This document shows, in pieces, positions 8,364 to 62,722 of a DNA stretch of 64,000 bases. The notes below the pieces were generated by a model. The model was not told where the DNA came from and made no database searches. It saw only the letters and a list, made by a program, of their open reading frames with translations. Source of the DNA: Malacoraja senta. Its lineage: Eukaryota. Position 1 is the first letter of the stretch. Each line of letters starts with the position of its first letter. A program made the position numbers and the translations under genes. The stretch lies in contig CM075993.1 of assembly GCA_038087875.1 (NCBI GenBank), forward strand, positions 11,224,001 through 11,288,000. The letters run 5' to 3'.

Positions 8364-10207
8364 CGAAACCTGTACGTCTTTGGATTGTGGGAGGAAACCA
8401 GAGATCCAGGAGAAAACACACGTGGTGCAGCCAGAAGGCAAGGAGAAGCCCCTTTAGACATTGGAACAGGGGCTGCGACCTCACACACCCCATGTACACG
8501 TGGACTGAATCCACGCTGAATACTCATCAATTACGCACACTATGATGCAATACTTCATAAGTTCATGTTATAGGAGCAGAATTAGGCCATTCGGCCCATC
8601 TGAACCTTCTGAACCTAAATGTTGTAGTCGGCAGGGCAGTACTCTGCATATCGCCAACTTGGACAATTTTACACTTTTTTTATCAAGCCAATTAACCTAC
8701 AAACCTGCACGTCTTTGGAGTGTGGGAGGGAGGAAACTGAAGTTCTCGGAGAAAACCCACGCAGATCATGGGGAGAACGTACAAACTCCATACAGACAGC
8801 ACCCGTAGTCGGGATCGAACCTGGGTCTCTGGCGCTGCATTTTGCTGTAAGGCAGCAACTCTACCGCTGTGCCACCGTGACTGCATCGTCCACTCTGCTG
8901 TTCAATCATAGCTGATCTATCTTCTTCTCTCAACCTCATTCTCCTGCCTTCTCCCCATAACCCCTGACACCCGCACTAATCAACAGTCCATCTATCTCTG
9001 CCTATAGAATCTATCTGTGTCTGTGGCAATGAATTCCACTGTGATCAGCTGCTCATCAACACCATATACAGCAAATCCACTGACATCACATGTTGAGTAT
9101 TTGGTGATACTAGTGTGTTGTGAATTCCCTGCTAATCCACACTGCACATCCTACTTTTAATGTCTTTTAATTTTTTGTGTGTTTTTTATAGTCCTTCGTT
9201 TTACGGTTTTTTAATGGTTTTTAATTGTTTGTAATAGCTTTTTGTTCGTGATTTCTCATGTACAGCACTTTGTGGCAACTGTGGTTGTTTAAAGTGCTTT
9301 ATAAATAAAGTTATTATTATTATTATTATTATTATATTACAAGTAAGTGACACTCGACGAGAGTAGGGAAATCGAGGAGCAGAGGACAGGTTCAAGGTGA
9401 AGGGGAAAAGATTTAATGGGAATCCGAGGGGTAACTTTTTCACACAAAGGGTGGTGGGTGTATGGAACCAGCTGCCAGATGAGGTAGTTGAGGCTGGGAC
9501 TATCCCAACGTTTGAGAAACAGTCAGACAGGATATGGACCAAGTGCAGGCAGGTGGGACTAGTGTAGATGGGACATGTTGGCCAGTGTGGGCAAGTTGGG
9601 CCAAAGGGCCTGTTTCCACACTGTATCACTCTATGACTATGACCCGACTGACTCCCGACTGACTCCGGAAAGAGAATTCTTACTTAAAATATCCGTTGCT
9701 TTGCTCATCCTTCGTGTAAAACTGAGCAAATAATACATTGTGAAACTGCCCTCTGAATCCTTGATAACAAGGTTACAAACCACAGTGGGAATCAACAAGT
9801 ACATTCACACAGTGTGTAGGAAGGAACTGCAGGTGCTGGTTTACATCGAAGATAGACACAAAATGCTGGAGTAACTCAGCGGGTCAGGCAGCATCTCTGG
9901 AGAGAAGGAATGGGTGACGTTTCGGGTCGAGACCCTTCTTCAGACTGTCAGGGGAGAGGGAGACTAGAGATGTGGATGGGTAAGGTGTGAAAACGACAGA
10001 TCAAAGCCGACGATGATACGGAAATGTTAGGATTCACTGCACTCATTCCTGGCTTAGACACAAAGTGCCTCAGCGGGCTATACCTTTCAATACCTCTAGT
10101 GACCTCTCCTCTGACTCTGAAGATGGGTCTTGGTCCAAAACGTCACCTATTTCTTTTCCCGCGTTCATAAGTTTTAGGAGCAGAATTCGGCCATTTAGCC
10201 CGTCAAG

Positions 10208-10520
10208 GGTCGGCGCGGTGGTACAGCGGGTGGAGCTGCTTCTTCACAGCATCAGAGACCTGGTTCGATCCTGACTACGGGTGCTGTCTGTACGGAGTTT
10301 GTACATTCTCCCGTGACCAGGGCGGGTTTTCTCCGGATGCTCCGGTTTCCTCCCACGCTCCAAAGACGTACAGGTTTTGTAGGCTAACGAGCTTGGCATC
10401 ATTGTAAATTGTCCCTAGTGTGTGTAGGACAGTGGTAATGTGCGGGGATCGCTGGGTGGCACAGACTCGGTGGGACGAAGGGCCTGTTTCCGCTCTGTAT
10501 CTCTAAACTAAGCTAAAACT
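10208..10520 (+). mobile_element. HE1-like V-SINE
   Basis: Same head, core and tail as the 5610 copy. Confidence 0.85.
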
Positions 10521-11469
10521 AGACTCAAAGAGGAAAAATCACATGGCAGATCTCAGGCTGGCCCAACGATGTACATAGGATGCACAGTAGCTGGTTGAAT
10601 AATGCAAACCAAACACAATTTGCAGAAAAGGCAGGAGGGATATGTACCTAAGTGCAGAATCGACGAACATTTAGCATAATTAACAGATTAGCAAGCCTTA
10701 CCTCGAGTGTAAATTAAGGTTGTTAATTAAAGCTCGCGTAGTCCATCACACACGCTAAGATCCTCCCAATGGTCGGATGTTAGGTCCAGCTCTGAAACTT
10801 CCTCTCATCACTCTGAATCCCTGTAGATATCTCCTGACTAGAACTGAAAACATTTGCACTTGTATAGGGGCGGTACGTAGGCGCAGGGATAGGGCAGCTG
10901 CCTCACAGCGCCAGAGACCCAGGATCGATTCTGACTTCCTGCACTGTCTGTTCAAAGGTGTCTAATGCAGTACACCTTTCATAATCATTGTCACACCTGC
11001 AGTTTCCACAGGAGATGGAGGAAGAAATGTATGCCCAATGGGTGGGGGAGCAGAGGAAAGAGGGGGGGGGAGCGGGCAGACCCAGGTTCGATTCTGACTA
11101 CGGGTGCTGTCTGTACGGAGTTTGCACGTTCTCCCTGTGAACGCTTTGGGTTTTCTCCTGGTACTCAGTTTCATCCCACACTCCAAGGACGTGCAGGTTT
11201 GTAGGTTGACACAAAATGCTGGCGTAACTCAGTGGGTCAGGCAGCATCTATGGAGAAAAGGAGTGGGGACATTTTGGGTCGAGACCATTCAGTCTGAAAA
11301 AGGGTCTCAACCCAAAACATCGCCTATTCCTTTTCTCCAGAGATGCTGCCTGACCCGCTGAGTTACTCCAGCATTTTGTGCCTTTCTTCAGTATAAACCA
11401 GCATCTGCAGTTCCTAACACAGGTTAAATGACTCCTGTGTGCCCCTACTGTATAGCGAGTGATGAGTAA

Positions 11470-12149
11470 AGGCCCTGTCCCACTTACGTGTCCTTGGCAT
11501 GCAAATTATGTGACCTCGTGGTTGCTTTGAGGCGCACGGGCATCGTGTGGCCGTGCGGGGCTGGTCCCATTTAGCACGGAGGGGTATGTAGTTGTGCGCG
11601 ACATCGCGCGGGGCTCCGAAATTTTTGTAGTGAACTAAATCTTCGCGCGCCTACGGCCTGTCACGGAACTGACGGCCAAAGTGGGACAGGCCCAACACCC
11701 TGGCACGACGCAACGTCTCACCTCCAACAGCAGCAGAGGCAGGCAAACGATCGCCGAGCTCGGCCTGGGGCTCACGGCCGTTGCGGATCCGGATCCTCCC
11801 CCACTTCTACTGCCAGAGCGGGGCCAAGAAAATTGAAGATGGACCCAAATTGCTGGAGTAACTCAGCGGGACCGGCAGCATCTCTGGAGAGAAGCAATGG
11901 GTGACGTTTAGGGTCAAGACCCTTCTTTTCAGACTGAAGGAGAGTCTCGACACAAAACGTCACCCATTGCTTCTCTCCAGAGATGCTGCCTGTCCTGCTG
12001 AGTTACTCCAGCTTTGTGTCCATCTTCAAAATGACATCACGCGCTCCAGACGGCTGTGCGGACGCATGAAATCGTGCCCGACCTTCGCGGGGACCGTTTA
12101 CGAGGTCGCGTAATTTGCGTGCCAAGGACACATAAGTGGGACAGGTCCT
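11470..12149. mobile_element. PIF/Harbinger-like MITE with nested Penelope-derived inverted dimer
   Basis: ~50-bp imperfect TIRs AGGCCCTGTCCCACTTACGTGTCC.../...GGACACATAAGTGGGACAGGTCCT; TAA TSD at 11467-11469 and 12150-12152. Confidence 0.85.
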
Positions 12150-13106: not shown

Positions 13107-13820
13107 TCATGGAGTGATACAGTGTGGAAACAGGCCCTTCAGCCCAACTTGCCCACACCGGCCAACATGTCCCAGCTTGCGCTTGGCCCATATCCCTCCA
13201 AACCTGTCCTATCCATGTATCTGTCTAACTGTTTCTTAAACGTTGCGATAGTCCCAGCCTCAACTTCCTCCTCTGGCATTTAAGAAGGAACTGCAGATGC
13301 TGGAAAATCAAAGGTAGACATAAGGGCTGAGAAACTCAGCCGGTGCAGCAGCATCTATGGAGCGAAGGAAATAGGCAACGTTTCGGGCCGAAACGTTGCC
13401 TATTTCCTTCGCTCCATAGATGCTGCTGCACCCGCTGAGTTTCTCCAGCACTTTTGTCTACCTACGTCCTCTGGCAGCTTGTTCCATACACCCACCACTC
13501 TTGTGTGAAAAGGTTACCCCTCGGATTCCTATTGAATCTTTTCCCCTTCACCTTGAACCAAGTCCTCTGGTCCTCGATTCCTCTACTCTGGGCAAGAGAC
13601 TCTGTGCATCTACCCGATCTATTCCTCTCATGATTTTATCCACCGCTATAAGATCACCCCTCATCCTCCTGCGCTCCATGGAATAGAGTCCCAGCCTACT
13701 CAACTCTCCCTGTAGCTCACACCCTCTAGTCCTGGCAACATCCTCGTAAATCTTCTCTGAACCCTTTCAAGCTTGACAACATCTTTCCTATAACATGGTG
13801 CCCAGAACTAAACACAATAG
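13107..13820 (-). mobile_element. CR1-clade LINE 3' fragment (second subfamily) interrupted by a Penelope-derived palindrome
   Basis: CR1 C-terminal coding remnant and 3' UTR; insertion at 13279-13466 flanked by tcctctggca direct repeats. Confidence 0.8.
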
Positions 13821-14174: not shown

Positions 14175-14567
<393 letters not shown>

Positions 14568-16100: not shown

Positions 16101-16896
16101 GCTCCCTGAGCTTGGTGCCACGAGCTTATATTGCCGCGGTATAATTTATGGAAATTAATTTAGATTTTGTTCTGACAGTGACGTTGAGTATATTTGGGAA
16201 GATGAACTGTTGGCAGGAGTCGGGCGAAGACTCTGCAACTGTGTGAGATCACCTCACTGCATCAGGACCGGTTTTACACGCTCCTACTTAGCTGGGTGAC
16301 ACTGACTGATGTGGTGCCTTGTAAATATTGTAGCAGGATTATATTATACTTCATAGCAATCATTCTAACAAATCATTTCATCAAACAGTGGTGTGAACCA
16401 TCTATCCTGTTTAGTTAAACAGATATATATCAATATATTTCAATGCAATCTGGGCAGTTCTGTAATAAAGCAGCGTTTACCTATTGGAAACAAAAACAGC
16501 TCCTTGCACCATTCACATGAAGTGTGAAAACGCACATCTCCAGATTCAGGGATAGTTTCTTCCCAGTTTTTAATAGACACAAAATGCTGGAGTAACTCAG
16601 CGAGACAGGCAACATCTCTGCATAGAAGGAATGGGTGACCTTTTGGGTCAAGACCCTTCTTCAGACTGTAACGTCACCCATTCCTTCTCTCCAGAGATGC
16701 TGCCTGTCCTACTGAGTTACTCCAGCATTTTGTGTCTGGCTTCAGTGTAAACCAGCATCTGCAGTTCCTTCCTACACAGTTTCTTCCCAGCTGTTATCAG
16801 GCAACTGATTCACCCTACCACAACCAGAGAGCAGTGCTGAACTACTATCTACCTCATTGGTGACCCTTGGACTATCCTTGATCAGACTTCGCTGGC

Positions 16897-17414
16897 TTCC
16901 TCCAACCTCATCTATTGCATCCGCTGCTCTAGATGCCAGCTGATCTACATCGGTGAGACCAAGCGGAGGCTTGGCGATCGTTTCGCCGAACACCTCCGGT
17001 CGGTCCGCAATAACCAACCTGCCCTCCCGGTGGCTCAGCACTTCAACCCCCCCTCCCATTCCGTATCTGACCTCTCTGCCCTGGGACTCCTCCATGGCCA
17101 CAGCGAGCAACACCGGAAATTGGAGGAAATGCACCTCATATTCCGCTTGGGCAGTCTGCATCCTGGGGGCTTGAACATTGAATTCTCCCAATTCTGCTAG
17201 CCCTTGCTGTCCCCTCCCCTTCATCATCCATCTGGTTGTCTCCTCCCCTCCCCTAGCCCTCGGGCTCCTCCTCTGCCTTTTTTCCTTTTTTCCTTTCTTC
17301 TCCCCACCCCCTATCAGTCGGAAGAAGGGTTTCGGCCCGAAACGTTGCCTATTTCCTTCGCTCCATAGATGCTGCTGCACCCGCTGAGTTTCTCCAGCAT
17401 TTTTGTGTACCTTC
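16897..17414 (+). mobile_element. Penelope-like element 3' part: GIY-YIG endonuclease and terminal repeat
   Basis: SNLIYCIRCSRCQLIYIGETKRRLGDRFAEH...VAQHFN...LEEMHLIFRLGSLHPGGLNIEF, followed by the repeat carrying a hammerhead-like core at ~17319-17346. Confidence 0.9.
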
Positions 17415-17913
17415 GCTGGCTTTACCTTGCACTAAACATTATTCCCTTATCATGTATCACTGCACTGTAAATGGCCCGATTGTAATCATGTATTGTCTTT
17501 CTGCTGACTGGTTAGCACGCAACAAAAGCTGTTACACCTCGTTACACGTGACGGTAAACTAAGCTAAAACTTCCAGTCTTTGTGGAATTCCTCTCAATGT
17601 CTGAACTAGTGGAAGCTTTGGAATGAGCAACACTTAATCATGTCGACCCGAAACGTCACCCATTCCTTCTCTCCAGAGATGCTGCCTGTCCCGCTGAGTT
17701 ACTCCAGCATTTTGTGTCTATCTTGGGTAGATAGTAGTTCAGGACTGCTCTCTGGTTGTGGCAGGATAGTTCAGTTGCCCGATAACTGCTGGGAAGAAAC
17801 TGTCCCTGAATCTGGAGGTGTGCCTTTTCACACTTCTGTACATTTTGGCATCTGCAGTTCCTTCCTGCACAATTAGACGTGTGTGTGGGTCCAGGTCGAG
17901 CAGGCTAAGTTGA

Positions 17914-18218: not shown

Positions 18219-21200
18219 AGCAACGGTGTACATACATTGGAAATAAGCAGTAAATTTGTCTAAAAATATATAATATTAAAGTGTGAAGTTTGAGTAAGGG
18301 ACGTGTGGGGGGCAGGGGCAGGGGCAGGGGCTGTGGTGAGAGGGGGCGGCGGGTAACCTGTGCCACGTTAGTGATGATGACTGCGCCGAGACTTTCTTAG
18401 GCTGCCCTCCACACCTCCCGCCTGCAGCGACCACGTTTCAAGTGGAGCGCCCGATGGAGATAGGGAGCGCAGGGCAGCTCTGTACGTCTTCTTTTCCCCA
18501 TTTCAATCGCTGGGGAAGTGACAGGACCTCCTCATTAGGCCTAATAAAGCAGGCAAGTGTTAGTGCCAGAGCTGTGTGTGTCTGTGGATGGGGTCACTCC
18601 ACTATTCCAGGTGCCGCCTTGGGGCACTCCTTACACTTGCTACATAAGTGGCACATTACAGCCCTGCTCATATCATATTCAAATGCAAAAAAAAAAAGGA
18701 ACATATTTTCCCCGTGATTTGCCGGCCAGGAACAAAAGAGACTCTCTAATCAAACGAGCCTGACAATTTGATGTCTTGACATTAAAAGCAGCGAGCGGCA
18801 GGGCTGTGCCAAATGCACCACATTACTTACAGCTATCTCTTTGAATTGGAGAAGAATCATTTCTTTGTTAAGAAAATTAAAAATTCATCAGACGGAAAGC
18901 CGTCTGAGGTCCGGCGGAATGCGCTCTGGTGATGGAACCAACATTTGTAAAGGTTCCAGTTCCTTAAGCGATGATTGTTAGTGATCGCTGCCTTATTAAG
19001 AGCTGTGGGAGTGGGTTGGCATTGGAGAGGAGGGGGTGCCTGTATAGTCTGAGCTTCGCTACGGGTCTACTCTGCGAGGGACACATTAACCGCCTCGCTG
19101 CTACAGTCCCTCGTTTATATTCAGCTGCCAGACATAAGATTCTGCTCAGGCATCAGTCTGAAGAAGGGTTTCGGCCCGAAACGTTGCCTATTTCCTTCGC
19201 TCCATAGATGCTGCTGCACCCGCTGAGTTTCTCCAGCACTTTTGTCTACCATAAGATTTAGCTCTTAGGGCTAACGGAATCAAGGGATATGGGGAGAAAG
19301 CAGGAACGGGGTACTGATTCTGGATGATCAGACATGATCATATTGAATGGCTCGAAGGGCTGAATGGCCTACTCCTGCACCTATTGTCTATGTTTCTAAC
19401 TCAGAAGACCCAAAACGTCGCCTATTGCTTCTCTCCAGAGATGCTGCCTGACCCGCTGAGTTACTCCAGCACTTTGTGTCTTGTCATAAGTTCTAGGAGC
19501 GGACATCGGCCGTTCGGCCCATCACGGTGGAGGAGCGGGTAGAGTTGCTGCCTCGCAGCGGGAGAGACGCGGGTTCAATCCAGGCTATGGGTGCTGTCCG
19601 AATGGAGTTTGTACCTTCTCCCTGTGACCTGCGTGGGTTTCCCCCGGATGCACTCCCACACCACAAAGCCATGCAGGTTTGGAGGTCAAGAGGCTTCCGT
19701 AAAATTATGAATTGTACCTAATGTGTGTAGGATAGTGCTAGTGGCAGGCATGGACTCAGTGGGCCGAAGAGCCTGTTTGCATGCTGTATCTCTAAACTAA
19801 AATATATCTCTAAACTCAGTCTACTCCACCATTCAATCATGGCTCATCTATCTTTCCTTCCAGACCTCATTCTCTGGCCTTCTCCCCATAACCCCTGACA
19901 TCCATACTAATCAAGAACCTGTCAATCTCTGCCTAAAAAATAGGCCGTCTCTGTCAATGAATTCCACAGATTCACCACCCTCTGACTAAAGAAATGTCTC
20001 CTCATCTCCTTTCTGAATGTGCGTCCTTTTATTCTGAGGCTGTGGCCTCTGGTCCTAGACTCTCCCACCAGTGATGACATTCTCTTCCACATCCACTCAA
20101 TCCAGGCCTTTCACTATTCGGTAAGTTTCACTGAGGTTTCTCGCTCATCCTTCTAAACCCCAGCGAGTACAGGCCCAGTGCCGTCAAACGCACATCGTAC
20201 GTTAACCCACTCATTCCTGGGATCATTCAAATGGGACAATAAGTTGGGGGCGGCACAGTGACGCAGTGGTAGAGTTGCTGCCTTACAGCGCCAGAGACAT
20301 GGGTTCGATCCTGACTACGGATGCTGTCTGTACAAAGTTTGTATGTTCATCTCGTGACCAAGCGGGTTTTCTCCAAGACCTTCGGTTTCCTCCCACACTC
20401 CAAAGACGTACAGGTTTGTAGGTTAATTGGCTTGGTATTAATGTCACATTGTCCCTAGTGTGTGTGGGATAGTGTCTTGTGATAATGTACGGAGATCAGT
20501 GGGTGGAAGGGCCTGTTTCCGCGCTGTATGACTGTATGACTCCACAACTCTAACTCCAACACTGACTCCTCATAAATCAACCCAAAACTCACCTCCACAG
20601 AGTTCCCAGCTGATGTTGGTCTGAAGAAGGCTCTCAACCCAAAACATCACCCATTCCTTCTCTCCAGAGATGCTGCCTGAGTTACTCCAGCATTTTGTGT
20701 CTATCTTCGATTTAATCCGGCATCTGCAGTTCCTTCCTACACATGATTTTGGGCCCTCATGCACAAGCTAACGGGGACACAAGGAACTTCAGATGCTGGT
20801 TTACAAAGAAAGGACACAAAGTGCTGGAGGAACTCAGCGGGTCATGCAGCATCTCTGGATAACATGGATAGGTGAGGCTTCGGGTCACAGGACCCTTCCA
20901 ATTAAGACGGAGACACAAGGAACTGCAGATGCTGGAATCTTGACTAAAACACAAAGTGATGGAGTAACCTAGCAGGTCAGGCAGCTTCTGTGGAGAACAC
21001 AGGCAGGCAACATTTTGGGTTGGAATCCTCCTCTGACTTCAGTCTGAAAAACGGGTCCTGTCTTGAAACTTCACCAATCCACGTTTTACGGAGTTTTACT
21101 CAAGATTCCAGCATCTGCAGTTCCTTGTGTTGAACCATCCAAGTGGTAAAGAAAGGGAAGGCTACTACCTACACCCTCAAGCTCATTCCCAATGGTGTAT

Positions 21201-23185: not shown

Positions 23186-25106
23186 TTATACACTATGAAT
23201 GTGTATTGTTTACACGCTGTTCTGGGAACACCAACCTACACACACTGGGGACAATTTACAATTATACCAAACCTGTACGTCTTTTGAGTGTGGGAGGAAA
23301 CTGGATCACCCAGAGGAAACCCACGTGGTCACAGGGAGAACAAGTTCATGTTATAGCAGTAGAATTAGGCCATTCGGCCCATCAAGTCTACTCTGCCATT
23401 TTATCATCGCTGATCTCTGCCTCCTAATCCCATTTTTCTCTCTTCTCCCATAACCCTTGACCCCCGTTCTAATCAAGAAATTGTCTACCTCTGCCTTAAA
23501 AGTATCCACAGATGGTTTCCACAGCTGTCTGTGGCAATGAATTCCACAGATTAACTACCCTCTGACTAAAGAGGTTCCTCCTCATCTCCTTTCAAAAAGA
23601 GTGCCCTTTAATTCTGAGGCTATGACCTATGTTCCTAGACTCTCCCAGCAGTGGAAACATCCTCTCCACATCCACTCTATGCCTTTTATTATTCTGTAAG
23701 TATCAATGAGGTTCCCCCTTCAACATCTAAACTCCAGCGCGTGGACGCCCAGTGCTTTCAAACGCTCATCATCAACGTCTACTCATTCCTGGAATCAGAA
23801 AGTACAAACTCTGTACAGACAGCACCCATAGTCAGGATCGAACCTGGGTCTCTGCAGCTGCAAGGCAGCAACTCTACCGCTGCGCCACCGTGCCGTCGGA
23901 GATGGATGAGACCGTGATGGGTTTAGGGAAGCAAAAAGAGGAAAGCTATTCTCTGAGTGATGAAGAGGAATTGATGAGCCTGTGAAAGGAAATGAGTTGT
24001 GAAGCTTCAGAATAGTTAAGGGTAAGGTGGAATGGGAACTCTGAGGGCCCCAGGAACTGTATATGCTGGAATCTGTCCCGAGGTGAAACATGGCCTGACA
24101 TTACCTCGATAGAATGGATGTGGAGAGAATGTTCCACTAGTGGGAGAGTCTCGGACCAGAGGGCACAGCCTCAGAATAAAAGGACGTTCCGTTAGGAAGT
24201 AGATGAGGGGGAATTTCTTTTGTCAGAGGGTGGTGAATCTGTGGAATTCATTGCCACAGACGGCTGTGGAGGCCAAGTCAATGGATATTCTTAAGGTTGA
24301 TTGATTCATGATTAGTACGGGCGTCGGGGGTTATGGGGAGAAAGCAGGAGAATGGGTTTGAGAGGGAAAGATAGATCAGACGTGATTGAATGGTGGAGTA
24401 GACAGACTTATTGGGCAGAATGGCCTAATTCTGCTCCTATCACTTCTGAACCTATGAACATATTACTCCAGCGTTTTGTGTTTGCAATCGGATCAATGTG
24501 ATTACTGCGCAGAGTATAGACCTAAAGTACCGAGTCACCGCGGCCTGCTTCATCATAAGTAAATAAGTTATTTAGAGTTATTTGAAAGTTTATACATTTT
24601 TTGGTGGCATTCAGAGTATTGTGTTCAGTTTTGGTCACCCTGCTATGTACTTTAGAATTTGGACTTCGAAGATACAATGTGGAAACAGGCCCTTCGGCCC
24701 ACCGAGTCCGTGCCGACCAGCAATCGCCCCGTACACTAACACTATCCGACACACTGGGACAATTTGACAACTTACCGACGCCAATTAACCGACAAAGCTG
24801 TAGGTCTTTGGAGTATGGGAGGAAACCGGAGCACCTGGAGAAAACCCACGTGGTCACAGGGGAGAAGGTACAAAGTCCGTAGAGACAGCGCCCATCGTGA
24901 GGATTGAACCTGGGCCTCTGGCGCAGTAAGGCAGCAATCTACCTCTGTGCCAGTGTACTGCCCAAAACTTGCATTTTAAATCGTGGGATCGGAAAGATGG
25001 AATTAGGCTGGAAAGAGCGCAGAGAAGATTTACGTGGATATTGCCAGGTCTTGAGGGCCCTGGGTTGTAGGATGCGGTTAGGCAGGTTAGGGCTATATTG
25101 TTTAAG

Positions 25107-25632
25107 AAGAAACTGCAGATACTGGAAAATCGAAGGTAGACAAAAGTGCTGAAGAAACTCAGCGGGTGCAGCAGCACCTATGTAGCGAAGGAAATAGGGA
25201 ACGTTTCGGGCCGAAACCCTTCTTCAGACTTATGTAGGGTGGGGGATGGGGGGTGTGTGGGGGGGGGGGGTTGGGGAGAAGAAAGGAGAAAGGAAGAGGA
25301 GGAGCCAGAGGGCTGAGGGAGCGCTGAGAAGGGGAGGAGACAGCAAGGGCTACCGGAAATTGGAGAATTCAATGTTTATGCCGCTAGGGTGCAGACTGCC
25401 CAAGCGGAATATGAGGTGCTGCTCCTCCAATTTCCGGTGGTGTTCACTCTGGCCATGGAGGAAGCCCAGGACAGAAAGGTCGGATTCGGAATGGGAGGGG
25501 GAGTTGAAGTGCTGAGCCACCGGGAGATCAGGTTGGTTAATGCGGACCGAGCGGAGGTGTTCGGCGAAACGATCGCCAAGCCTACGCTTGGTCTCACCGA
25601 TGTAGATCAGCTGACATCTAGAGCAGCGGATG
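25107..25632 (-). mobile_element. Penelope-like element 3' part (GIY-YIG plus terminal repeat)
   Basis: Reverse complement closely matches 16897-17414; hammerhead-like core at ~25200-25227. Confidence 0.9.
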
Positions 25633-25881
25633 CTCTAGATGTCTATATTCCTTGGAGCGCAAGAGGGTGAGGGGAGATGGGGAATATAAAATCATGAGGG
25701 GAATAGAGAGAATGAATTAATCGAGCCTTTTATCCATGGTCGGGGAATTAATCACTGGTGGGCAAAGGTTTAAAGTGAGAGGGGAAAGATTTAATAGGAA
25801 ACTGAGGGGCAACATTTTCACACAGAGGATGGTGGGTAAATGGAATGAGATTGTAGAGGAGGTATTTGGGGCAGGTATTCT

Positions 25882-34697: not shown

Positions 34698-34755
34698 TAT
34701 GTGTGACAATTTAACACTATGACTTACGCATGATCTCTCTCTGTTTTTTCAACAG

Positions 34756-36232: not shown

Positions 36233-36239
36233 AATGCTA

Positions 36240-38879: not shown

Positions 38880-38935
38880 AGTCTGAAGAAGGGTCTCGAC
38901 CCGAAACGTCACCCATTCCTTCTCTCCAGAGATGC
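38880..38935 (+). ncRNA. Minimal type I hammerhead-ribozyme-like motif (representative intact copy)
   Basis: CUGAAGA-A-GGGU-CUCG-ACCC-GAAAC-GUC: both conserved core boxes, a 4-5 bp stem II and a GUC cleavage triplet; helix I is weak. Confidence 0.6.
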
Positions 38936-44299: not shown

Positions 44300-45055
44300 T
44301 TAAGAAGGAACTGCAGATGCTAGAAAATCGAAGGTAGACAAAAGTGCTGGAGAAACTCAGCGGGTGCAGCAGCATCTATGGAGCGAAGGAAATAGGCAAC
44401 GTTTCAGGCCGAAACCCTTCTTCAGACTGATGTAGGGTGGGGGGGGGGGGGGCAGAAGAAAGGAAAAAGGAAGAGGAGGAGCCCGAGGGCTGAGGGAGAG
44501 CTGAGAAGGGGAGGAGACTGCAAGGGCTAACGGAAATTGGAGAATTCAATGTTTATGCCGCTAGGGTGCAGACTGCCCAAGCGGAATATGAGGTGCTGCT
44601 CCTCCAATTTCCAGTGGTGCTCACTCTGGCCATGGAGGAGGCCCATGACAGAGAGGTCGGATTCGGAATGGTAGGGGGAGTTGAAGTGCTGAGCCACCGG
44701 GCGATTAGGTTGGTTAATGCGGACCAAGTGAAGGTGTTCGGCGAAACGATCGCCAAGCCTACGCTTGGTCTCACCGATGTAGATCAGCTGACATCTAGAG
44801 CAGCAGATGCAACAGATGAGGTTGGAGGAGATGCAGGTGAACCTCTGTCGCTCCTGGAACGACAGCTTGGGTCCTTGAATGGAGTCGAGGGGGGAGGTAA
44901 AGCGACAAGTGTAGCATCTCTTGCGGTTGCAAGGGAAAGTGCCCAGGGAGGGGGTGGTACGGGAGGGAAGGGACAAATTGACCAGGGAGTTACGGAGGGA
45001 GCGGTCTTTGCGGAAAGCAGACAGGGGGGGAGATGGGAAGATGGTGGTATCACGT
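44300..45055 (-). mobile_element. Penelope-like element 3' part (Cys-rich linker, GIY-YIG, terminal repeat)
   Basis: ORF 44527-44976: PCNRKRCYTC...LICCICCSRCQLIYIGETKRRLGDRFAEH...GINIEF. Confidence 0.92.
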
Positions 45056-47320: not shown

Positions 47321-49794
47321 CCAATGATGCACTGGTGATCATTAATATTTGTCTCGGCTGTGAGTGTATGACAATCAAAGCGACCCACACTTCACCTTGT
47401 GCGAGTTCAGACATGCATCTTGTCGACGTCTGCCAGGTGTGTCTAGGCTACAGGTACTGGCATGAATTCTGTAAAGAACAGCTTCAGGCCTCTAAACCGT
47501 GGATGCAGCTCCTGGGAATCATGTCAAGAATGGGCTCATTTTGTTTGCTGCCAACCATTAAGTGTTTTATTAGACAGTTTTCTCTCAGCTCATTTGTCTG
47601 AAAATATACACCCTTGAATGAACAGTCAAGACAAGGAAAGACAAAGTGCTGGAATAGCTCAGCGGGTCAGGCAGCATCTCTGGAGAACATGGATAGGTGA
47701 CGTTTCAGTTTGGGATCCTTCTTCTGATTTTTTTAAATATTGAAACCAGTATCTGCAGTTCCTTGTTTCTACAGCCAAGCCAATGGATGGATAATCTAGA
47801 TTTCTCACACACTCCTACTTACTTACCGCCAGTTCCTTCAAATTTGTCTCATCTGCTTTGTCCACACTCAAATCCTTCATTCTAGTCGGGCAGTGGGAAG
47901 ACTTCAGAAATATGCAACATCGGAACTTGGCATCTTTAGTTGTTTAGTTTAGAGATACAGCGCGGAAACAGGCCCTTCGGCCCACCGAGTGCATGCCGAC
48001 CAGCGATCCCTGCACACTAACACTATCCGACACACACTAGGGCCAATTTACATGTATACCAAGCCAATTAACCTACAAACCTGTACGTCTTTGGAATGTG
48101 TGAGGAAACCACAGCTCCCGGAGAAACCCCCCCACAGGTGACGGGGAGAAGGTGTAAACTTCATACAGACTGCACCCGTAGTCAGGATCGAACCTGGGTC
48201 TCTGGCACCTTACGGCAGCAACTCTGTGCCACCATGCCGCCCTGTATAGCACAAAATATTTTCTAACGAGCTTGGAGCAAAAGTGCTTTAAGGAGTAACT
48301 GTCAGTGATGGGTAATGGACAAAGAAGGATTGAGGTAGGAAGGTTTAGTGGGCAGGGCAGGGTCACGGACATTGGGAGGGAAAATAATAATATTGATGCT
48401 ACTCTCTGTATTCCGATGGAAGGTCATCGACCTGATAGGTTAACTCAGTTTCTCTGTACAGACAGTGGTGCAACAGCACCAGAGATCCGGGTTCAATCCT
48501 GACTAGGGTGCTGTCTATACAGAGTTTGTACATTCTCCCTGTGACCGTGTGGGTTTTCCCCTGGTGCTCCGCTTTCTTCCCACACTCCAAAGGCATAGAG
48601 GTTTGAGGCTGGACCCTCTGCAGTGACCAATGTTACATGGCGACAACCTACGACCGGAGTAGAGGGGCAACGTCAAGCCCACATTTCAAAACCCAGCGGC
48701 GACAAGAAATAAGTAACGGCACTTGAGGAGACCGCTCCCGACAATACACGCGTCACGTCGCCACTATTTTTCAGCTGTCACCGAAGTGGGACAGGCCCTT
48801 AAAGAAGCCGCCTGACTTGCTGAGTACTTTAGCATTTCCTGGTACAGTTCAGATATTAGCTCTGCTGCAAGCGTTTGAGATCATTAATATGATTATGACC
48901 AGGATGTTCTTTTCCTGTATTCATTATCATGCACATTTAATATACATTTAACTACAATGCAACCACAATGTGACTTTACAAAAGCTAATATGGGAATCAG
49001 GAAAAAACTTTGAACAGTGCAGGACACTAATAAATTGATGATGAGTATTATATGGAAATATGTTAATGTTACAATGGCAGGTGGGAGGAGATGTGTGGAT
49101 GACACACACAGTATGCCTAAGGATATTGACAATTTTGTAGAAACAAGGAACTGCGGATGCTGATTTACACGAAAGGACACAAAGTGCTGGGGTAACTCAG
49201 CGGGTCAGGCAGCATCTCTGGAGAAAAGGAATAGGTGACGTTTCGGGTCAAGACCATTCATCAGAATGAAGAAGTAACATACTCAGGCAACAAGTGTAGG
49301 AAGGAACTGCAGATACTGGTTTACACCGAAGATAGACACAAATTGCTGGAGTAACTCAGCAGGTCAGTCAGCATCTGTGAAGAAAAAGGTGACATTTTGC
49401 TTCAGACTGAAGAAGGGTCCTGACCCGAAACGTCAACTATTCCTTTTCTCCAAAGGTGCTCCTTGAGTTACTGCAGCATTTTTTTATCCTTTTGAAAATG
49501 TTGTGTTAATTTAAAGGATGGAAGCAAGGAACAATGCTATATCATATAAAGTCCTTAACGGTTCAAGGAAGATCTTTGACTTTGCAACTGAGATTGGGCT
49601 GAAATGTTGAACCAAGACTTCACGGGAAACAGGGATTACTAAGTGTAATTTTGGGTATTGCCTGCACCAAGATAGCTTATTGTGCTCAGTAAAAACTATA
49701 TCTAAATGTTACTGCTGTGGTAATACTGCCCATTAAAGCATTGCCTTCTCATTGAGATATACATCAACCATTGCTCAAAGGTGGGTGTTATGGG

Positions 49795-51316: not shown

Positions 51317-51401
51317 GTCACATCGACGTCTTCACATCGAAGATCCTATTGATTGACCAGTTCCCAGCAGCATCAATAACAGAAAAACTTGGATCATTCA
51401 A
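51317..51401 (+). CDS. Candidate internal coding exon B ((G)HIDVFTSKILLIDQFPAASITEKLGSF)
   Basis: Acceptor ccttgctatattacag and donor CAA|GTAAGT; 85 nt; the only open frame is the one required by the phase-1 end of exon A; ends in phase 2. Confidence 0.75.
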
Positions 51402-53364: not shown

Positions 53365-53695
53365 ATATATAAAAGGACTGGACAAGCTAGATGCAGGAAA
53401 AATGTTCCCAATGTTGGGCGAGTCCAGAACCAGGGGCCACAGTCTTAGAATAAAGGGGAGGTCATTTAAGACTGAGGTGAGAAAAAACGTTTTCACCCAG
53501 AGAGTTGTGAATTTATGGAATTCCCTGCCACAGAGGGCAGTGGAGGCCAAGTCACTGGATGGATTTAAGAGAGAGTTAGATAGAGCTCTAGGGGCTAGTG
53601 GAGTCAAGGGATATGGGGAGAAGGCAGGCACGGGTTATTGATAGGGGACGATCAGCCATGATCACAATGAATGGTGGTACTGGCTCGAAGGGCTG
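53365..53695 (+). mobile_element. CR1-clade LINE 3' end
   Basis: ORF 53402-53641. Confidence 0.88.
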
Positions 53696-54313
53696 CGAGT
53701 GGGGGGAGCAGTGTTGCAGGGTATGGAAGAGACCCTGGTGCGAGCCTCATCTATGGTGGAGGAGGGGAACCCCCGTTCCCTGAAGAATGAGGACATTTCA
53801 GATGCCCTGGTGTGGAACGCCTCATCCTGGGAGCAGATGCGGCGTAGACGGAGGAATTGGGAGTGGGGGATGGAGTCCTTACAGGAAGCAGGGAGGGAAG
53901 AAGTGTAGTCCAGATAGCCATGGGAGTCAGTAGGTTTATAATGAATGTCAGTCAGAAGTCTATCACCTGCGATGGAGATAGTGAGGTCAAGGAATGGTTG
54001 GGAAGTGTCGGAAATGGTCCAGGTGTATTTGAGTGCCGGATGGAAGTTGGTGGTGAAGTGGATGAAGTCAGTCAGTTGTGTGTGGGTGCAGGAGGTGGCA
54101 CCAAAGCAGTCATCGATGCAGCGGAGGTAGAGGTCGGGGATGGGGCCCTGGTACGCCTCGAACAAGGATTGTTCGACGTACCCGACAAAGAGGCAGGCGT
54201 AGCTGGGGCCCATGCGTGTGCCCATAGCTACGCCTTGTATTTGGAGGAAATGGGAGGAGTCAAACGAGAAGTTATTGAGGGTGAGGACCAACTCCGCTAG
54301 GCGGAGGAGAGTA
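53696..54313 (-). mobile_element. Penelope-like reverse transcriptase fragment
   Basis: NNFSF...QIQGVAMGTRMGPSYACLFVG...LRCIDD (YIDD altered)...PFLDL...HYKPTDSH...SQFLRLRRICS. Confidence 0.92.
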
Positions 54314-54959
54314 TCAGTGGCCGGGTATAGGTTGCTTCTCAGAAGAGGTAGTTGTGGCTGGGACTATCCCAACGTTTAAGAAACAGTTAGACAGGTGCAT
54401 GGATAGGACAGGTTTGGAGGGATATGGACCAAGCGCAGGCAGGTGGGACCAGTGGCGATGGGACATGTTGGCCGGTGTGGGCAAGTTGGGCTGAAGGGCC
54501 TGTTTCACTCTATGACTTTAAGGCCATTCGTGCCATCATGTTCATGCCAGATCCCAAAGGAGCAATTCAATCAGTGCCATTGCCTCTCTCCTTACAGCTC
54601 TGTTGTCTAGCTGCTAGTTCTATCTCACCCCTGACCATCAGCTAGCTTCCCTTTGATTCCCTTTACCACTAACTTTATTTGTGTTCAGTTTAGTTTATTG
54701 TCACGTGTACCGAGGTTCAGTGAAAAACTTTTGTTGAGTACCAACCAGTCAGCAGAATGACAATACATGATTACAATCGAGTCATTCACGATCTACAGAT
54801 ACATGATGAATGGAATAACGTTTAGTGCAAGATAAATTAATTTACGTCGGGGATGAACTAAAGTGGCTAATTAACCTGCCAGCACGTCTCGTGGATGTGT
54901 GAGGAGACTGGGGCACCCTGGCATACAGTGTAGTTTAGTTTTGCATGCTATCGCAAACA

Positions 54960-55468: not shown

Positions 55469-56477
55469 AAATCATACAATACTGTAAGTAGACAAAAATG
55501 CTGGAGAATCTCAGTGGAGTGAAGGAATAGGCAACATTTCGGGCTGAAGCCCTGCTTCAATACTGTAATCAAGTCAAACTCAAGTATAATAGATAGAGCA
55601 AAGGGGAAGATACAGAATGCAGAGTATAGTTCTCAGCATTGTAATGCATCAGTTCCAGAGACAAAGTCCAATGTGCAATGGGGTAGAGGTGCAATATCCG
55701 AGCTTATGGAAGGACCGTTCTGCAGCCTGATAACAGAGGGGAAGAAGCTGTTCCTGAGTCTGGTGGTGCGCGCTTTCAAGCTTCTGTATCTTGTGCCGGA
55801 CGGGAGCAGGGAGAAGAAGGAATGACCAGGGTGGGACAGGGACAAGTCTTTGATTATGTTGGCTGATTTTCCGAGGCAGCACGAAATGTAGTCGGAGTGT
55901 GTGGTGGGGAGGCTGGTCTGTGTGAGGGAATGGTCTACATCTATTACACTCTGCAATATCTCCCGGTCTTGGGCAGCGTTGTTTCCAAACCAAGCTGTGA
56001 AGCAACCTGACAGTCTGCTTTGTACTGTGGTGCTAGTGAGACCATCACATGACAGTGAGGTATGTATAATCTGCTAGAGACTGAGAAATGCAGATGGCAA
56101 TGAGGTGGGAAGAGTTTATATAAATAGTATGCACAACCTTGGCTCACCTTGCCGTTGCCAGCAACGCCTTCAATCCTCTGATTCCTTCCTGGACCCGTGG
56201 GCCATTTAAACTCATTGGTAGTCTACGGTGTACTTACGTTGTTACTTTACGTTGGAGTAACTCAACGGGTCAGGCAGCATCTCTGGAGAATAGGGTCGTT
56301 TTGTGTCGAGATCCTTCTTCAGACCAGGAGAAAGGTCTTGACCCGAAACATGACCTATTCCATTTTTCCAGAGATGCTGCCTGATCCGCTGAGTTAACTG
56401 TAGGTGTAGATGATGTGCTGAGACTATCACGTTGTTTTGAGCTGCCTGGATCTCCCTCCACGCCTGCCCCCCGGGCC

Positions 56478-57210: not shown

Positions 57211-58629
57211 CCAGCATTTGGTGGAGGGCACACGCACAATATTGCCCTTCTATCACGATTTCTTTCAGTCCTGCAAGACAGCAAGCAGATTGGAAAAGAT
57301 GATGGCAAAGCAAGGCTTCAGACCAATTTATGTAGCGGCACAGTGGAGCTGTTGCCTCAATGATTCACAAACCCGGGTTCAATCCTGACCTCAGGTGCTG
57401 TCAGTGCGGAGTTTGCACGTGCTCCCTGTGACGGCATGGGTTCCTTCCGGGTGTTCCGGTTTCCTCCCACATCCCAAAGAAGTGTGAGTTTGTAGGTCAA
57501 TGGACCCCTCGAAAATTGCCCCTAGTGTGTAGGGCGTGGATGTGAAAGTGGGATAACATAGAACTAGTGTGTATGAAGGAACTGCAGATGCTGGTTTAAA
57601 CTGAAGATAGACACATAAAGCTGGAGTAACCCGTGGGTCAGGCAGCATCACTGGAGTAATAGAATAGGTGACGTTTTGGGTTGAAAAGAAGCATCTCGAG
57701 TCGACCCAAAACATCCACTATTCCTTTTCTCCAGAGATGCTGAGTTACTCCAGTTTTTGGTGTCTATTTTCTAGAACTACTGTGAATGGGTGATTGATAG
57801 TCGGCATGGACTCGGTGGCCAAAGGGCTTGTTTCCACCCTGTATCTTTCAATTCAATTCAGTTGAATATGTCAGTAAGATAGAGAACCCATTTGGGCTCC
57901 TGTAAAGGATTGTTTAAGGACAGCCAGCAATCTTCCCCACTTCATGCTAAGAGTAGACCAGGTTTAGATCAGTGGAGTCACTTTGTGAATGGTGAAACAT
58001 TGGCATTGACATAAGTCAACACAAATGTTCATATACATGTGTAGGACGGAACTGCAGATGCTGTTTAACACCGAAGGTAGACACAAAAAGCTGGAGTAAC
58101 TCAGCAGGACAGGCAGAATATCTGGAGAGATGAAGGGTGACGTTTCAGGTCGAGGGTCAGGGGAGAGGGAAACAAGAGATATAGGCGGCACATGGATCAA
58201 ATGAATGAAAGACATGCAAAAAAAGCATTACTGAAGAAGGATCTCGACCTAAAAAGGTCACCCATTCCTTCTATCCGGAAGTGGCGGCACTGTTTAACAG
58301 CTGCGGCTCGCCTGCAGTCCGCCTGTCTTTACTTTTTTCTGTTGGTTTTTTTGTCTTGTTTTGGTTAAGTTTTAGTTTGTTGGGTTGTGTTAGGGGGGGT
58401 GAAACATGTTCTCTGTCTCTTCCTTCGGGGGAATGCGACTTTTTCGTGTCGTATCCCCCTTCTCTGCCTCCGTCTGCGCTGAGGCCTAATGGCGGAGCTG
58501 GCGGCCTCCAACCTGCGACCGACCCCGAGGCTACAGAGGCAGAGCCAGCCAGGACTTACCAACGAGAGGCTGGCCGTCTTCGGGGCTGAGGCAGCGGTGG
58601 CCCGACTTGCTGGTGCGGCGTTCTGGCTT

Positions 58630-58815: not shown

Positions 58816-59427
58816 TGTGGCGGGCGGCGTTCCGGCTTTCGGCGGCGGCGACATCACCACGGAGGTCCGCTGGACTGGAGGGCGGCATCTTCGGCCTGGA
58901 TCGATCGCCTCAGCGCAGAGGGAGAACAAGGAGGGAAGAGACGGAGACTAAGACTTTGCCTCCATCACAGTGAGGGTGTGCTTGGTGAACTCACTGTGGT
59001 GGATGTTTAATTTGTGTTTATTGTATGTTTTGTTATTATTGGTTCTGTGTATGACTGCAGGCAACATAATTTCGTTCAGACCGAAAGGTCTGAATGACAA
59101 TAAAGGAATCTATCTATCTATCTATCTATCTCCAGAGATGCTGCCTGTCCCACTGAGTTACTCCAGCTTTTTGTGTCTGTTTTCGATGATCAAGGAAAGT
59201 TGGAGCTCACAATGGTCCATTGTTGGCTGTGGGGGAGGTGATAACGAGTGGACACAAAAACTGGAGTAACTCAGCGGGACAGGCAGCATCTCAGGCGAGA
59301 AGGAATGGGTGACGTTTCGGGTCGAGACCCTTCTTCAGACTGGCTCCACTGTGACAAACATTTGCTTTCTTTTCCCCTTCTGTACTGTTGCTGTGATTTT
59401 TAACGCTACCCTTTCTTGTCCTTGCAG

Positions 59428-59478
59428 CCCCGTCAACTCGATAAACATCCTTCACCATATACTGAGGAAGCTGATGAG
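59428..59478 (+). CDS. Candidate internal coding exon C ((N)PVNSINILHHILRKLM in the frame set by exon B)
   Basis: Strong acceptor ccctttcttgtccttgcag and donor GAG|GTGAGT; 51 nt; open in the phase-2 frame continuing exon B, and also open in phase 0 (PRQLDKHPSPYTEEADE). Confidence 0.7.
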
Positions 59479-59579
59479 GTGAGTGGTGTGTGATGCCCAG
59501 ACCTCGTGATGTGTTCATGCAAATCTCTCACACTTGGGCCCTTGGTCGGATGTAGAAGACAGTGTACGATATGGACAGT

Positions 59580-61530: not shown

Positions 61531-62151
61531 GGAAGGAAGGTCAGCGCTCCTCGGACGTGCGGGCCGGGCCCAGGAGCAAACTCAAACCAGGACATCTTCG
61601 GCCCTACCCACTCCCCTACGCTCAGGGTGTCCAGAGATGAGGATGGTGGGTGTGAAGTGCAGCCAGCAGACAAGGAGCAGCCCCTTCAGATAATGGAACC
61701 GGGGCTAATCTTGCAGCACCACACCCTCACTCAGCAGAGACACAGTGTCGGCTTGTTGATCGGCTGCCCTGTACAGGCACGTCACAGCAGTCTGATTTGA
61801 AAATACCTGTTCTGAGGAATATGAAATACTACGCGTTGTTCTTAATCTTTTTGCAGAACGTTGCAGACATCTTGACAGTTTTTTGATCAAATATTTCAGT
61901 TCTGAGCCCTTTAAACAACTCTCACTCAACCGCAGTGTGTTTCATGCTCTTTGATCAACCTCAACTCTCTTGGTTGCACAGACAACTTTGATTTTGTTGA
62001 GCATTCATTTATTCAATGTTTTACAAAATTACAAATTATATATCTGTGTGTTATTGCATTAGTGGGGCTGTTAAGGTGCAGCAAGGAAAAAAGGTCATTG
62101 TTCTGATGGTGGTATGTATAACAATTAAACACTCTTGACTCATTTGAACAT

Positions 62152-62722
62152 CCTCCAACCTCATCTACTGTATCCGTTGTTCCAAGTATATCGGCGAGAC
62201 CAAGCGCAGGCTTGGCGATCGTTTCACGGAACTCCTCCGCTCAGTCCGCCCAGGTCTACCCAATCTCCCAGTTGCCAAACACTTTAACTCCCCCTCCCAT
62301 TCCCACACTGACCTTTCTGTCCTGGGCCTCCTTCAATGTCAGAGTGAGGCCCAGCACAAATTGGAGGAACAGCACCTCATATTTCGCTTGGGCAGCTTAC
62401 AACCCAGCGGTATGAATATTGATTTCTCTAACTTCAAGTAACCCTTGCATCCCCGCTCTCTCCATCCCTCCCCACCTTAGTCATTCTGCTAGTTTTACTG
62501 TTCGTATCCCTTCATTATCACTTCCTCCACAGCCAACAATGGATCATTGTGTGCTCTTTGAGCTGCGTTGCCGGCTCTGATCTGTCCTGTAACTTTTCAT
62601 ACCTCTAGTTTCCCTCTCCCCTGACTCAGTCTGAAGAAGGGTCTCGACCCGAAACATCACCCATTCCTTTTCTCCAGAGATGCTGCCTGTCCCGCTGAGT
62701 TACTCCAGCATTTTGTGTCAAC
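62152..62722 (+). mobile_element. Penelope-like element 3' part (GIY-YIG remnant plus terminal repeat)
   Basis: SNLIYCIRCS...YIGETKRRLGDRF...LEEQHLIFRLGSLQPSGMNIDF; hammerhead-like core at 62631. Confidence 0.88.

What the first reader, a model, noticed from the sequence alone, without database searches (positions are those of the whole stretch)
9916..62660. Dense family of minimal hammerhead-ribozyme-like motifs carried by Penelope terminal repeats
Seen: CTGA(A/G)GA-A-GGG..CCC-GAAAC-(GTC/GTT/ATC) with an intact core on + at 19158, 28306, 38883, 43704, 49407 and 62631, and on - at 9916-9943, 25200-25227, 37585, 44201 and 59311-59338. Many more decayed copies exist. Two subfamilies differ in stem II (gggtctcgaccc vs gggtttcggccc) yet both still pair. 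The motif sits just downstream of the GIY-YIG stop in the Penelope fragments. Established: Penelope-like elements carry minimal hammerheads with a very short helix III, often thought to act as dimers through a palindromic loop (here ACGU). Inference: sense copies lying in this gene's introns could cleave the pre-mRNA if active.
Basis: partly seen in the sequence, partly recalled or inferred. Interest (0 to 1): 0.72.

Follow-up and report, generated by a model that had tools for sequence, protein, structure and literature searches.

The report
Skate Penelope stubs with minimal hammerheads
About 67 short leftovers of a known kind of jumping gene (a Penelope-like retrotransposon) lie in and around the introns of a skate gene and carry the tiny self-cutting RNA motif already described for such elements, in a weakened form that is predicted not to cut the host transcript, so this is ordinary in kind.

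Summary
Observation confirmed: all 11 coordinates are exact; 13 strict motifs against 0.2 by chance. The window is skate DNA in the ICE2 gene. The motif is the minimal type I hammerhead of a Neptune/Nematis-type Penelope-like element's pLTR, 101-189 nt after the GIY-YIG stop. Related elements in marine metagenomes carry it, often at the same place, with covarying helices, so the fold is real and known (PMC4209133). But the 67 copies are mostly 90-135 nt insertion stubs that decay neutrally (core 8.3% vs flank 8.1%). Helix I has only 2 bp (relatives 3-5), and a rival hairpin is predicted to bury the core. 30 of 67 copies sit in head-to-head pairs, and there is no strand bias (34+/33-). Intron cleavage is unlikely. 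One useful clue: 26 of 67 copies begin within 4 nt of the CUGA box and none at the cleavage site, so the copied RNA was uncut and likely starts there. The scan found this before in other shark and skate windows.

The parts
9916..9943 (-). min-hammerhead motif, subfamily A (GUC), in pLTR copy 9813-9971; head-to-head with 10078-10158
19158..19185 (+). motif, subfamily B (GUU), solo stub 19151-19250, 9-bp direct repeat on its flanks
25200..25227 (-). motif, subfamily B, 122 nt after GIY-YIG stop; helix I lost
28306..28333 (+). motif, subfamily A, stub begins at the CUGA box; no helix I
37585..37612 (-). motif, subfamily A, solo stub
38883..38910 (+). motif, subfamily A, solo full stub 38879-39012, sense in an ICE2 intron
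43704..43731 (+). motif, subfamily A (CUGAGGA), solo stub 43702-43831, sense in an ICE2 intron
44201..44228 (-). motif, subfamily A, in head-to-head unit 44137-44302
49407..49434 (+). motif in head-to-head unit 49291-49492; no helix I
59311..59338 (-). motif, subfamily A, solo stub
62631..62658 (+). motif with ACAU (palindrome lost), 189 nt after GIY-YIG stop
6843..6999 (.). head-to-head pLTR unit with 15-bp target duplication (1 mismatch)
11203..11415 (.). head-to-head unit joined at the TCAG-N-CTGA near-palindrome
11827..12027 (.). head-to-head unit joined at the same near-palindrome
13281..13466 (.). head-to-head unit, subfamily B, joined at the stem II/GAAAC palindrome; 12-bp target duplication
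16573..16778 (.). head-to-head unit, 15-bp target duplication
31612..31852 (.). head-to-head unit
56253..56396 (.). head-to-head unit
57566..57771 (.). head-to-head unit, 13-bp target duplication
16823..17418 (+). PLE 3' fragment: GIY-YIG end (Pfam PF01541, above cut-off), 3' UTR, pLTR with mutated core (CGGAAGA)
44301..45042 (-). PLE 3' fragment: CX4CX2C linker, GIY-YIG, UTR, pLTR
25099..25661 (-). PLE 3' fragment: GIY-YIG end, UTR, pLTR
62148..62728 (+). PLE 3' fragment: GIY-YIG end, UTR, pLTR
4560..4878 (-). older PLE GIY-YIG fragment; decayed pLTR at 3979-4065
53680..54342 (-). PLE reverse transcriptase fragment (55-70% identical to the four PLE proteins mapped)
34756..34885 (+). ICE2 (NARG2) exon, AG..GT
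51317..51401 (+). ICE2 exon
59428..59485 (+). ICE2 exon

Best explanation
The motif is the minimal type I hammerhead in the terminal repeat (pLTR) of a skate Penelope-like retrotransposon, and the 67 copies are short insertion stubs, likely reverse-transcribed from uncut element RNA and predicted to be inactive inside ICE2 introns. Shown: the motif follows the GIY-YIG stop; stubs end at two 3' sites about 35 nt apart (the PLE 'tail'); most begin just before the CUGA box; 15 pairs are head-to-head. Inferred mechanism: the element's protein binds pLTR RNA, nicks DNA and starts cDNA at one of the two internal sites. It runs to the RNA's 5' end, likely a start site at the initiator-like TCAGT. Two such cDNAs, or one folding back, join at short palindromes to give the mirror pairs. 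The ribozyme can fold only as a dimer (shared 4-bp ACGU helix III, two 2-bp helices I), likely with protein help in the element's own RNA. Free intronic stubs are predicted to be locked in a rival hairpin.
For: PLE RT and GIY-YIG fragments with the CX4CX2C linker. Motif 101-189 nt after the stop in 4 of 5 fragments. In 80 related loci, 18 palindromic motifs vs 0.28 by chance; in 12 families picked by eye, stem II pairs 12/12, 12/12, 12/12, 10/12 and helix I 11/12, 11/12, 10/12 with 3-5 pair types per position, G10.1-C11.1 invariant. 3' ends: 27 of 67 at +88..105 and 29 at +122..135; 5' ends: 26 at -4..+3, 0 at +25..+33 (cleavage would follow +28); binomial p 9e-13 among the 50 ends within -12..+60. 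8 of 15 pairs have one long and one short arm; 4 of 15 have 12-15 bp target duplications vs 4 of 200 controls at 12 or more. In public runs of related organisms, depth drops 14-156 fold upstream of the core and shows no step at the cleavage site. Core decay 37/448 vs 273/3365 downstream, p 0.93. Skate helix I reaches 3 bp in 0 of 11 motifs vs 16 of 18 in relatives. Dimer energy gap 17-21 kcal/mol vs -7 to +15 in 10 relatives. PMC11167929: anole PLE uses uncut RNA as its main template, and its hammerhead needs the protein.
Against: No cleavage assay was possible, and nearest-neighbour energies ignore tertiary contacts and protein. With only 8 nt kept after the site, the skate gap (6-9 kcal/mol) falls within the relatives' range. 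D. virilis PLE hammerheads also have a 2-bp helix I (PMC4209133). The start site is inferred only from copy ends: no pile-up of read starts was seen (section 6). Part of the depth drop reflects different upstream UTRs among subfamilies. 11 of 15 pairs show no target duplication.
Confidence: 0.85

Rival explanations
1. Sense copies act as dimeric ribozymes in ICE2 pre-mRNA (for example 38883 with 43704, 4.8 kb apart in one intron) and cut it often enough to affect expression.
For: Both copies keep core, ACGU, GUC and a 2-bp helix I and are not in hairpin pairs. Tandem dimers of a Schistosoma min-HHR cleave weakly in vitro (PMC4209133). Family sequence is common in polyA RNA of a related organism: 18,726 of 7,335,232 reads.
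Against: Predicted closing pair of stem II has probability 0.00-0.13 for these two copies; dimer gap 19-21 kcal/mol. No strand bias and neutral core decay. A review of exon-tethering work reports that introns cut by a slow hammerhead are still spliced (PMC2995048, passages).
Confidence: 0.07
2. The skate hammerhead is vestigial even in the master element: helix I has eroded, and the core is kept only as promoter or protein-binding sequence, or by recent descent.
For: Helix I is 2 bp in subfamilies A and B, and both keep a hairpin that pairs with CUGAAGAAGG. No copy starts at the cleavage site. Naiad PLEs proliferate without canonical hammerheads (PMC8557442, passages).
Against: Between A and B majorities 0 of 15 core positions differ vs 16 of 95 downstream (p 0.079). 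Changes in stem II, helix I and the triplet all keep the fold (U-A to U-G twice, GUC to GUU). A locked monomer is also what a protein-assisted ribozyme would look like (PMC11167929).
Confidence: 0.35
3. The sharp 5' end of the stubs marks a 3' splice site (pyrimidine tract, CAG/U) rather than a start site, and splicing supplies a longer helix I, as proposed for D. virilis Penelope.
For: Both UTR types end in a pyrimidine tract plus CAG just before U-CUGA. In D. virilis the intron's 3' end maps to the 5' end of helix I (PMC4209133).
Against: Solo stubs share no common upstream exon (by eye). No RNA-specific joint into this site among the listed joints, and the loose-end peak is the same in RNA and DNA. 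Most relatives lack AG there.
Confidence: 0.1
4. The ~135-nt unit is now an independent non-autonomous element (SINE- or retrozyme-like) that copies itself from its own stubs.
For: Stubs outnumber upstream and ORF sequence more than tenfold in depth and have fixed ends. A preprint argues animal retrozymes derive from pLTRs (10.64898/2026.07.22.740005).
Against: No tandem arrays of full units in the window; junctions of the 15 pairs all differ; RNA reads lie on both strands about equally and 96% run on into unlike sequence. Fixed ends follow from the pLTR promoter and RT start sites alone.
Confidence: 0.15

Closest known systems
Minimal type I hammerheads (min-HHR) of metazoan PLEs, including fish Xena, Poseidon and Neptune (Cervera and De la Pena 2014, PMC4209133)
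   Same: CUGANGA, one extra base before stem II, G10.1-C11.1, palindromic 15.2-16.2 with no loop, location in the pLTR, mostly solo truncated copies, pairs on opposite strands, many per genome
   Different: Helix I 2 bp instead of the 4-5 bp reported for Schistosoma (but equal to D. virilis); stem II 4 bp; elasmobranchs were not named in the parts I read
Canonical EN+ PLE insertion unit of Neptune/Nematis type (PMC8557442; Adineta Pen2a, PMC3846280)
   Same: RT plus C-terminal GIY-YIG, CX2-5CxxC linker, 5'-truncated copies, inverted copy head-to-head, one-sided 30-40 bp tail, palindromes at the junction, initiator-like motif in the pLTR, target duplications in some copies
   Different: Here most inserts have shrunk to pLTR only (90-135 nt, or 135-245 nt as mirror pairs) with a sharp 5' end just before the ribozyme core
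Anolis Poseidon PAc (Frangieh et al. 2024, PMC11167929)
   Same: Two internal RT start sites giving the tail; uncut RNA as main template; no RNA-seq ends at the cleavage site
   Different: Different PLE clade; in PAc the ORF starts in stem II, which was not examined here; PAc cleavage was shown with protein, none is shown here
Animal non-LTR retrozymes (bioRxiv 10.64898/2026.07.22.740005)
   Same: Short non-coding, hammerhead-bearing, PLE-related repeats
   Different: Retrozymes are head-to-tail tandem arrays with two or more complete motifs; these copies are solo or head-to-head

Membership tests
PLE minimal type I hammerhead | Core boxes CUGANGA and GAAA, UH triplet | tested here: met
   13 sites vs 0.2 in shuffles
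PLE minimal type I hammerhead | Extra base between 9 and 10.1; G10.1-C11.1; stem II | tested here: met
   A, G-C and 4-bp stem in subfamilies A and B and in 12 of 12 relatives
PLE minimal type I hammerhead | Palindromic minimal helix III | tested here: met
   ACGU in 11 of 13 strict sites
PLE minimal type I hammerhead | Helix I (4-5 bp typical, 2 bp in D. virilis) | tested here: inconclusive
   2 bp in 8 of 11 palindromic sites, 0 bp in 3, never 3 or more; at the lower published limit
PLE minimal type I hammerhead | Located in the pLTR next to a PLE ORF | tested here: met
   101-189 nt after the GIY-YIG stop in 4 of 5 fragments; 95-133 nt in 6 related loci
PLE minimal type I hammerhead | Core conserved or covarying among master families | tested here: inconclusive
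   Clear across distant relatives; within skate A vs B 0/15 vs 16/95, p 0.079; with 4 decayed C copies 3/13 vs 32/97, p 0.35
PLE minimal type I hammerhead | Self-cleavage as dimer or with protein | not testable with these tools
   needs an in vitro assay
Rfam hammerhead families | Score at the gathering threshold | tested here: not met
   no hammerhead hit at gathering or at E up to 10; not filed under these models
EN+ Penelope-like element, Neptune/Nematis type | PLE RT and C-terminal GIY-YIG in one ORF | tested here: met
   window fragments map to both domains of single full-length homologs; no intact ORF in the window
EN+ Penelope-like element, Neptune/Nematis type | CX2-5CxxC linker before the endonuclease | tested here: met
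   CX4CX2C in 44524-45120; definition from PMC8557442
EN+ Penelope-like element, Neptune/Nematis type | Inverted 5'-truncated copy and one-sided 30-40 bp tail | tested here: met
   15 head-to-head pairs, two 3' end peaks, 8 of 15 long plus short
EN+ Penelope-like element, Neptune/Nematis type | Placement in Neptune rather than Nematis by RT tree | not tested
   no named reference sequences at hand
Non-LTR retrozyme | Head-to-tail tandem units, at least two with a complete hammerhead | tested here: not met
   no two adjacent same-strand copies with a complete motif among the 13 strict sites

The most novel reading that the evidence does not exclude
Skate and shark genomes are littered with run-off cDNAs of an uncut pLTR RNA that starts at an initiator 3 nt before the hammerhead core. 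The ribozyme is held off by a conserved hairpin and switched on, if ever, only by the element's protein. The stubs' ends would then map the start site, both RT start sites and the joining step of Penelope integration, and show that this lineage amplifies massively without ribozyme cleavage.
Probability: 0.4. Interest if true: 0.5.

Novelty: new member of a known kind. Interest (0 to 1): 0.25.

Why it matters
As a catch it extends a published motif to a skate PLE family and explains about a tenth of this intronic window. The role of PLE hammerheads is still open in the papers read. A family whose copies never start at the cleavage site but pile up just before the core is a cheap natural test of whether cleavage takes part in retrotransposition. 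The mirror pairs also put many long hairpins into host pre-mRNA. There is no sign here of host use or harm.

Tried and rejected
Rfam: no hammerhead model hits; the miRNA-model hits at 13338-13436 and 11892-11972 are just mirror pairs. A first protein alignment was too loose for a locus search; a second worked. The exact motif pattern gave 0 viral contigs and 1 prokaryote-labelled contig. The look-up of sequencing runs: no RNA holder listed; one raw polyA run of a related organism was laid. Read-end mapping lists only pile-ups above a fifth of local depth, so it cannot detect modest cleavage. A-to-I editing: A>G and T>C counts in RNA vs DNA runs were not interpretable without DNA of the same animal. 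I considered by eye an HDV-like fold starting at the 5' boundary and a second cleavage at the NUC just upstream; neither has the needed pairings, and Rfam HDV models do not hit these copies. A DPE-like reading of GAAACGTC is out of register (by eye against PMC2377424). My exon finder was weak; exons rest on homology. The ICE2 exons before residue 714 and after 802 were not found in the window, so intron status outside 34756-59485 is likely but not shown. Subfamily C has only 4 decayed, poorly aligned copies, so the three-way test is unreliable. Lunse et al. (RNA Biol, PMC5785218) is not held; seen only as a cited title. PMC10919898 passages gave nothing relevant.
Full report
1. Observation. 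A regular expression finds 19 core-like matches, 16 of them family copies. A stricter descriptor finds 13 sites, against 0.2 on average in 60 dinucleotide shuffles. BLAST with eight window copies as queries gives 67 copies of the repeat, 34 on + and 33 on -, covering 10.7% of the window. Rfam reports no hammerhead at either threshold.

2. Setting. The exon at 34756-34885 is 100% identical to Amblyraja radiata ICE2 (little elongation complex subunit 2). Two more ICE2 exons lie on + at 51317-51401 and 59428-59485 with AG..GT ends. So the window is skate DNA, and 34886-59427 is intronic apart from the middle exon. The flanking exons were not found, so the rest is probably intronic too. A Penelope-type RT fragment lies at 53680-54342 (-) and five GIY-YIG fragments map to the C-terminus of full-length homologs. 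The longest carries CX4CX2C before the endonuclease, the linker that PMC8557442 (passages) gives for the Neptune and Nematis clades. The motif follows the stop by 101, 118, 122 and 189 nt in 4 of 5 fragments.

3. Is the fold real? Numbering C of CUGA as +1, the motif is CUGAAGA, an extra A, a 4-bp stem II closed by G-C, GAAA, then CGUC or CGUU; cleavage would follow +28. These are the features of the min-HHR in PMC4209133 (parts 1-2 of 4 read; figures and supplements not seen). In 80 related PLE loci from metagenomes the descriptor finds 23 sites, 18 palindromic, against 0.76 and 0.28 in shuffles. Of 21 loci with the ORF end and 250 nt beyond, 9 show a motif within 400 nt, 6 of them at 95-133 nt. 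In 12 families picked by eye, the core and G10.1-C11.1 are invariant. Stem II positions 2-4 pair in 12, 12 and 10 of 12, and helix I positions 1-3 in 11, 11 and 10 of 12, with several pair types each; helix III palindromes vary too (ACGU, ACGCGU, AAGCUU, AAAUUU). Stem II was part of the search, helix I was not, so helix I is the independent evidence. The motif is a genuine, selected structure in this clade.

4. The skate version is weak. Helix I is 2 bp in 8 of 11 palindromic sites and absent in 3; 16 of 18 sites in relatives have 3-5 bp. Between subfamilies A (33 aligned copies) and B (10), 0 of 15 core positions differ against 16 of 95 downstream (p 0.079). Adding 4 decayed C copies gives 3 of 13 vs 32 of 97 (p 0.35). 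The A-B changes are one-sided (U-A to U-G in stem II and in helix I; GUC to GUU). Individual copies decay neutrally: 37 of 448 non-CpG core positions vs 273 of 3365 downstream (p 0.93), and CpG sites, including the ACGU palindrome, at 21%. Folding 16 copies in two contexts, stem II's closing pair has probability under 0.15 in 29 of 32 folds; a hairpin between CUGAAGAAGG and the pyrimidine run at about +33 to +50 usually wins. The active dimer lies 17-21 kcal/mol above two monomers when 30 nt follow the site, vs -7 to +15 for 10 relatives. With only 8 nt the gap is 6-9, inside the relatives' range. These are secondary-structure estimates only.

5. What the copy ends say. 3' ends fall in two peaks: 27 of 67 at +88..105 and 29 at +122..135. 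This is the optional 30-40 bp PLE tail, tied to two internal RT start sites in PMC11167929 (parts 1-2 of 4 read). 5' ends: 26 of 67 at -4..+3, 7 at -12..-5, 10 further upstream, 13 at +11..+24, 11 beyond +33, and none at +25..+33. Copies of a cleaved RNA would start at +29. Laying public runs of related organisms gives the same picture. On an A copy, depth falls 156-fold in one contig set and 40-fold in raw polyA reads just upstream of the core. On a B copy it falls 14-fold and 25-fold, with a loose-end peak at -1 and unrelated flanks. Part of the drop is due to different UTRs among subfamilies. Depth runs smoothly across the cleavage site, and no pile-up of read ends is listed, though that test is insensitive. 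Reads lie on both strands about equally and 96% run on into unlike sequence, which fits passive transcription inside host RNAs. The sequence at the boundary is TCAGT; an initiator-like TCACT is described in an Adineta pLTR (PMC3846280, passages), and Penelope has an internal promoter in its pLTR (PMC2377424, passages). I infer a start site there; it is not shown.

6. Mirror pairs. 30 of 67 copies form 15 head-to-head pairs, against 4 looser tail-to-tail neighbours. 8 of 15 combine a long and a short arm. 4 of 15 have 12-15 bp target duplications, vs 4 of 200 random controls at that length. Several join at TCAG-N-CTGA or, in subfamily B, at the palindrome across stem II and GAAAC; the latter junction recurs in a related genome (loose end at 44415). 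Inverted copies, tails and junction palindromes are described for PLEs (PMC8557442, PMC3846280). As RNA, most of these units fold into long hairpins (13 of 15 at -60 kcal/mol or lower) that would bury the core.

7. Host intron cleavage. Between the mapped exons there are 12 sense and 13 antisense copies; strict sites are 6 on + and 7 on -. The numbers are small but show no depletion. Only 19158, 38883 and 43704 are sense, palindromic, helix-I-bearing and outside a pair. Published min-HHRs were inactive as monomers and weak as dimers (PMC4209133; review passage in PMC6765202), and the anole one needed its protein (PMC11167929). Introns cut by a slow hammerhead were still spliced in work cited by PMC2995048 (passages). 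I put meaningful ICE2 cleavage at about 7%.

8. Mechanism and status of each step. Shown: identity of the repeat, position of the motif, covariation in relatives, end distributions, mirror pairs, neutral decay. Inferred: RNA start at the initiator-like site, cDNA from uncut RNA, joining at palindromes by annealing or fold-back (not separable here), dimer- and protein-dependent cleavage in the element's own RNA. Whether the skate master ribozyme still cleaves is open; I put the chance that it is vestigial at about one in three.

9. Novelty. New member of a known kind. Searches for an elasmobranch PLE hammerhead found no such paper in the held library; Repbase and Dfam could not be searched. A 2026 preprint (part 1 of 5 and passages) reports tandem retrozymes in one chondrichthyan genome; its supplements are closed. 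This scan has noted the same family in at least eight other shark or skate windows, including the start 2-3 bases before the motif; those are unchecked notes, and I had reached that reading before seeing them (notes). Interest 0.25.

Noticed in passing
window 17872-18200 (+): Decayed ribosomal protein L35a sequence (Pfam PF01247 above cut-off), apparently a processed pseudogene, starting right after a 24-nt pLTR tail fragment at 17848-17871; adjacency may be chance.
   Followed up: partly
window 31252-31349 (+): Weak Rfam hits to CPEB3 and HDV-like ribozyme models (21.7 and 24.8 bits, E 0.3 and 2.1, below gathering), unrelated to the Penelope copies; probably chance.
   Followed up: partly
L081 401-429 (-), contig CBDDTI010000588.1: A contig filed as a bacterial MAG carries a PLE-type end with the same hammerhead as locus L012 (4-bp helix I); likely animal DNA in the bin.
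   Followed up: partly
window 2677-3327, 34206-34748, 40322-41050, 42965-43300, 53324-53641, 54934-55374, 62956-63348: Many 3' fragments of one non-LTR retrotransposon RT (CR1-like by recalled motifs, not tested) in both orientations; no Pfam hit for the one scanned.
   Followed up: no
window 4525-5142, 41253-41642, 52009-52548, 55633-56073, 56385-57062: Further decayed retrotransposon ORF ends of other families; labels not established.
   Followed up: no
window e.g. 3818, 6457, 8862, 15394, 20271, 30874, 32008, 51202: A second abundant short repeat with a tRNA-like head, sharing a 16-nt stretch (AGAGTTGCTGCC-like) with the pLTR; likely a SINE (recalled, not tested).
   Followed up: no
window 14170-14600 and 35100-36250; gap 33657-33856: Long degenerate (CA)n arrays and one 200-base assembly gap.
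   Followed up: no
window 44527-45042 region, run X23: In the endonuclease region first mates lie about 2:1 on the - strand, which in a usual stranded library would mean more antisense than sense PLE RNA; library strandedness unknown.
   Followed up: no
window 61030 (-) and 32572 (-): Hybrid copies mixing subfamily A and B features; an A-head, B-tail form is frequent in the related RNA run (396 reads), suggesting a further subfamily or template switching.
   Followed up: partly
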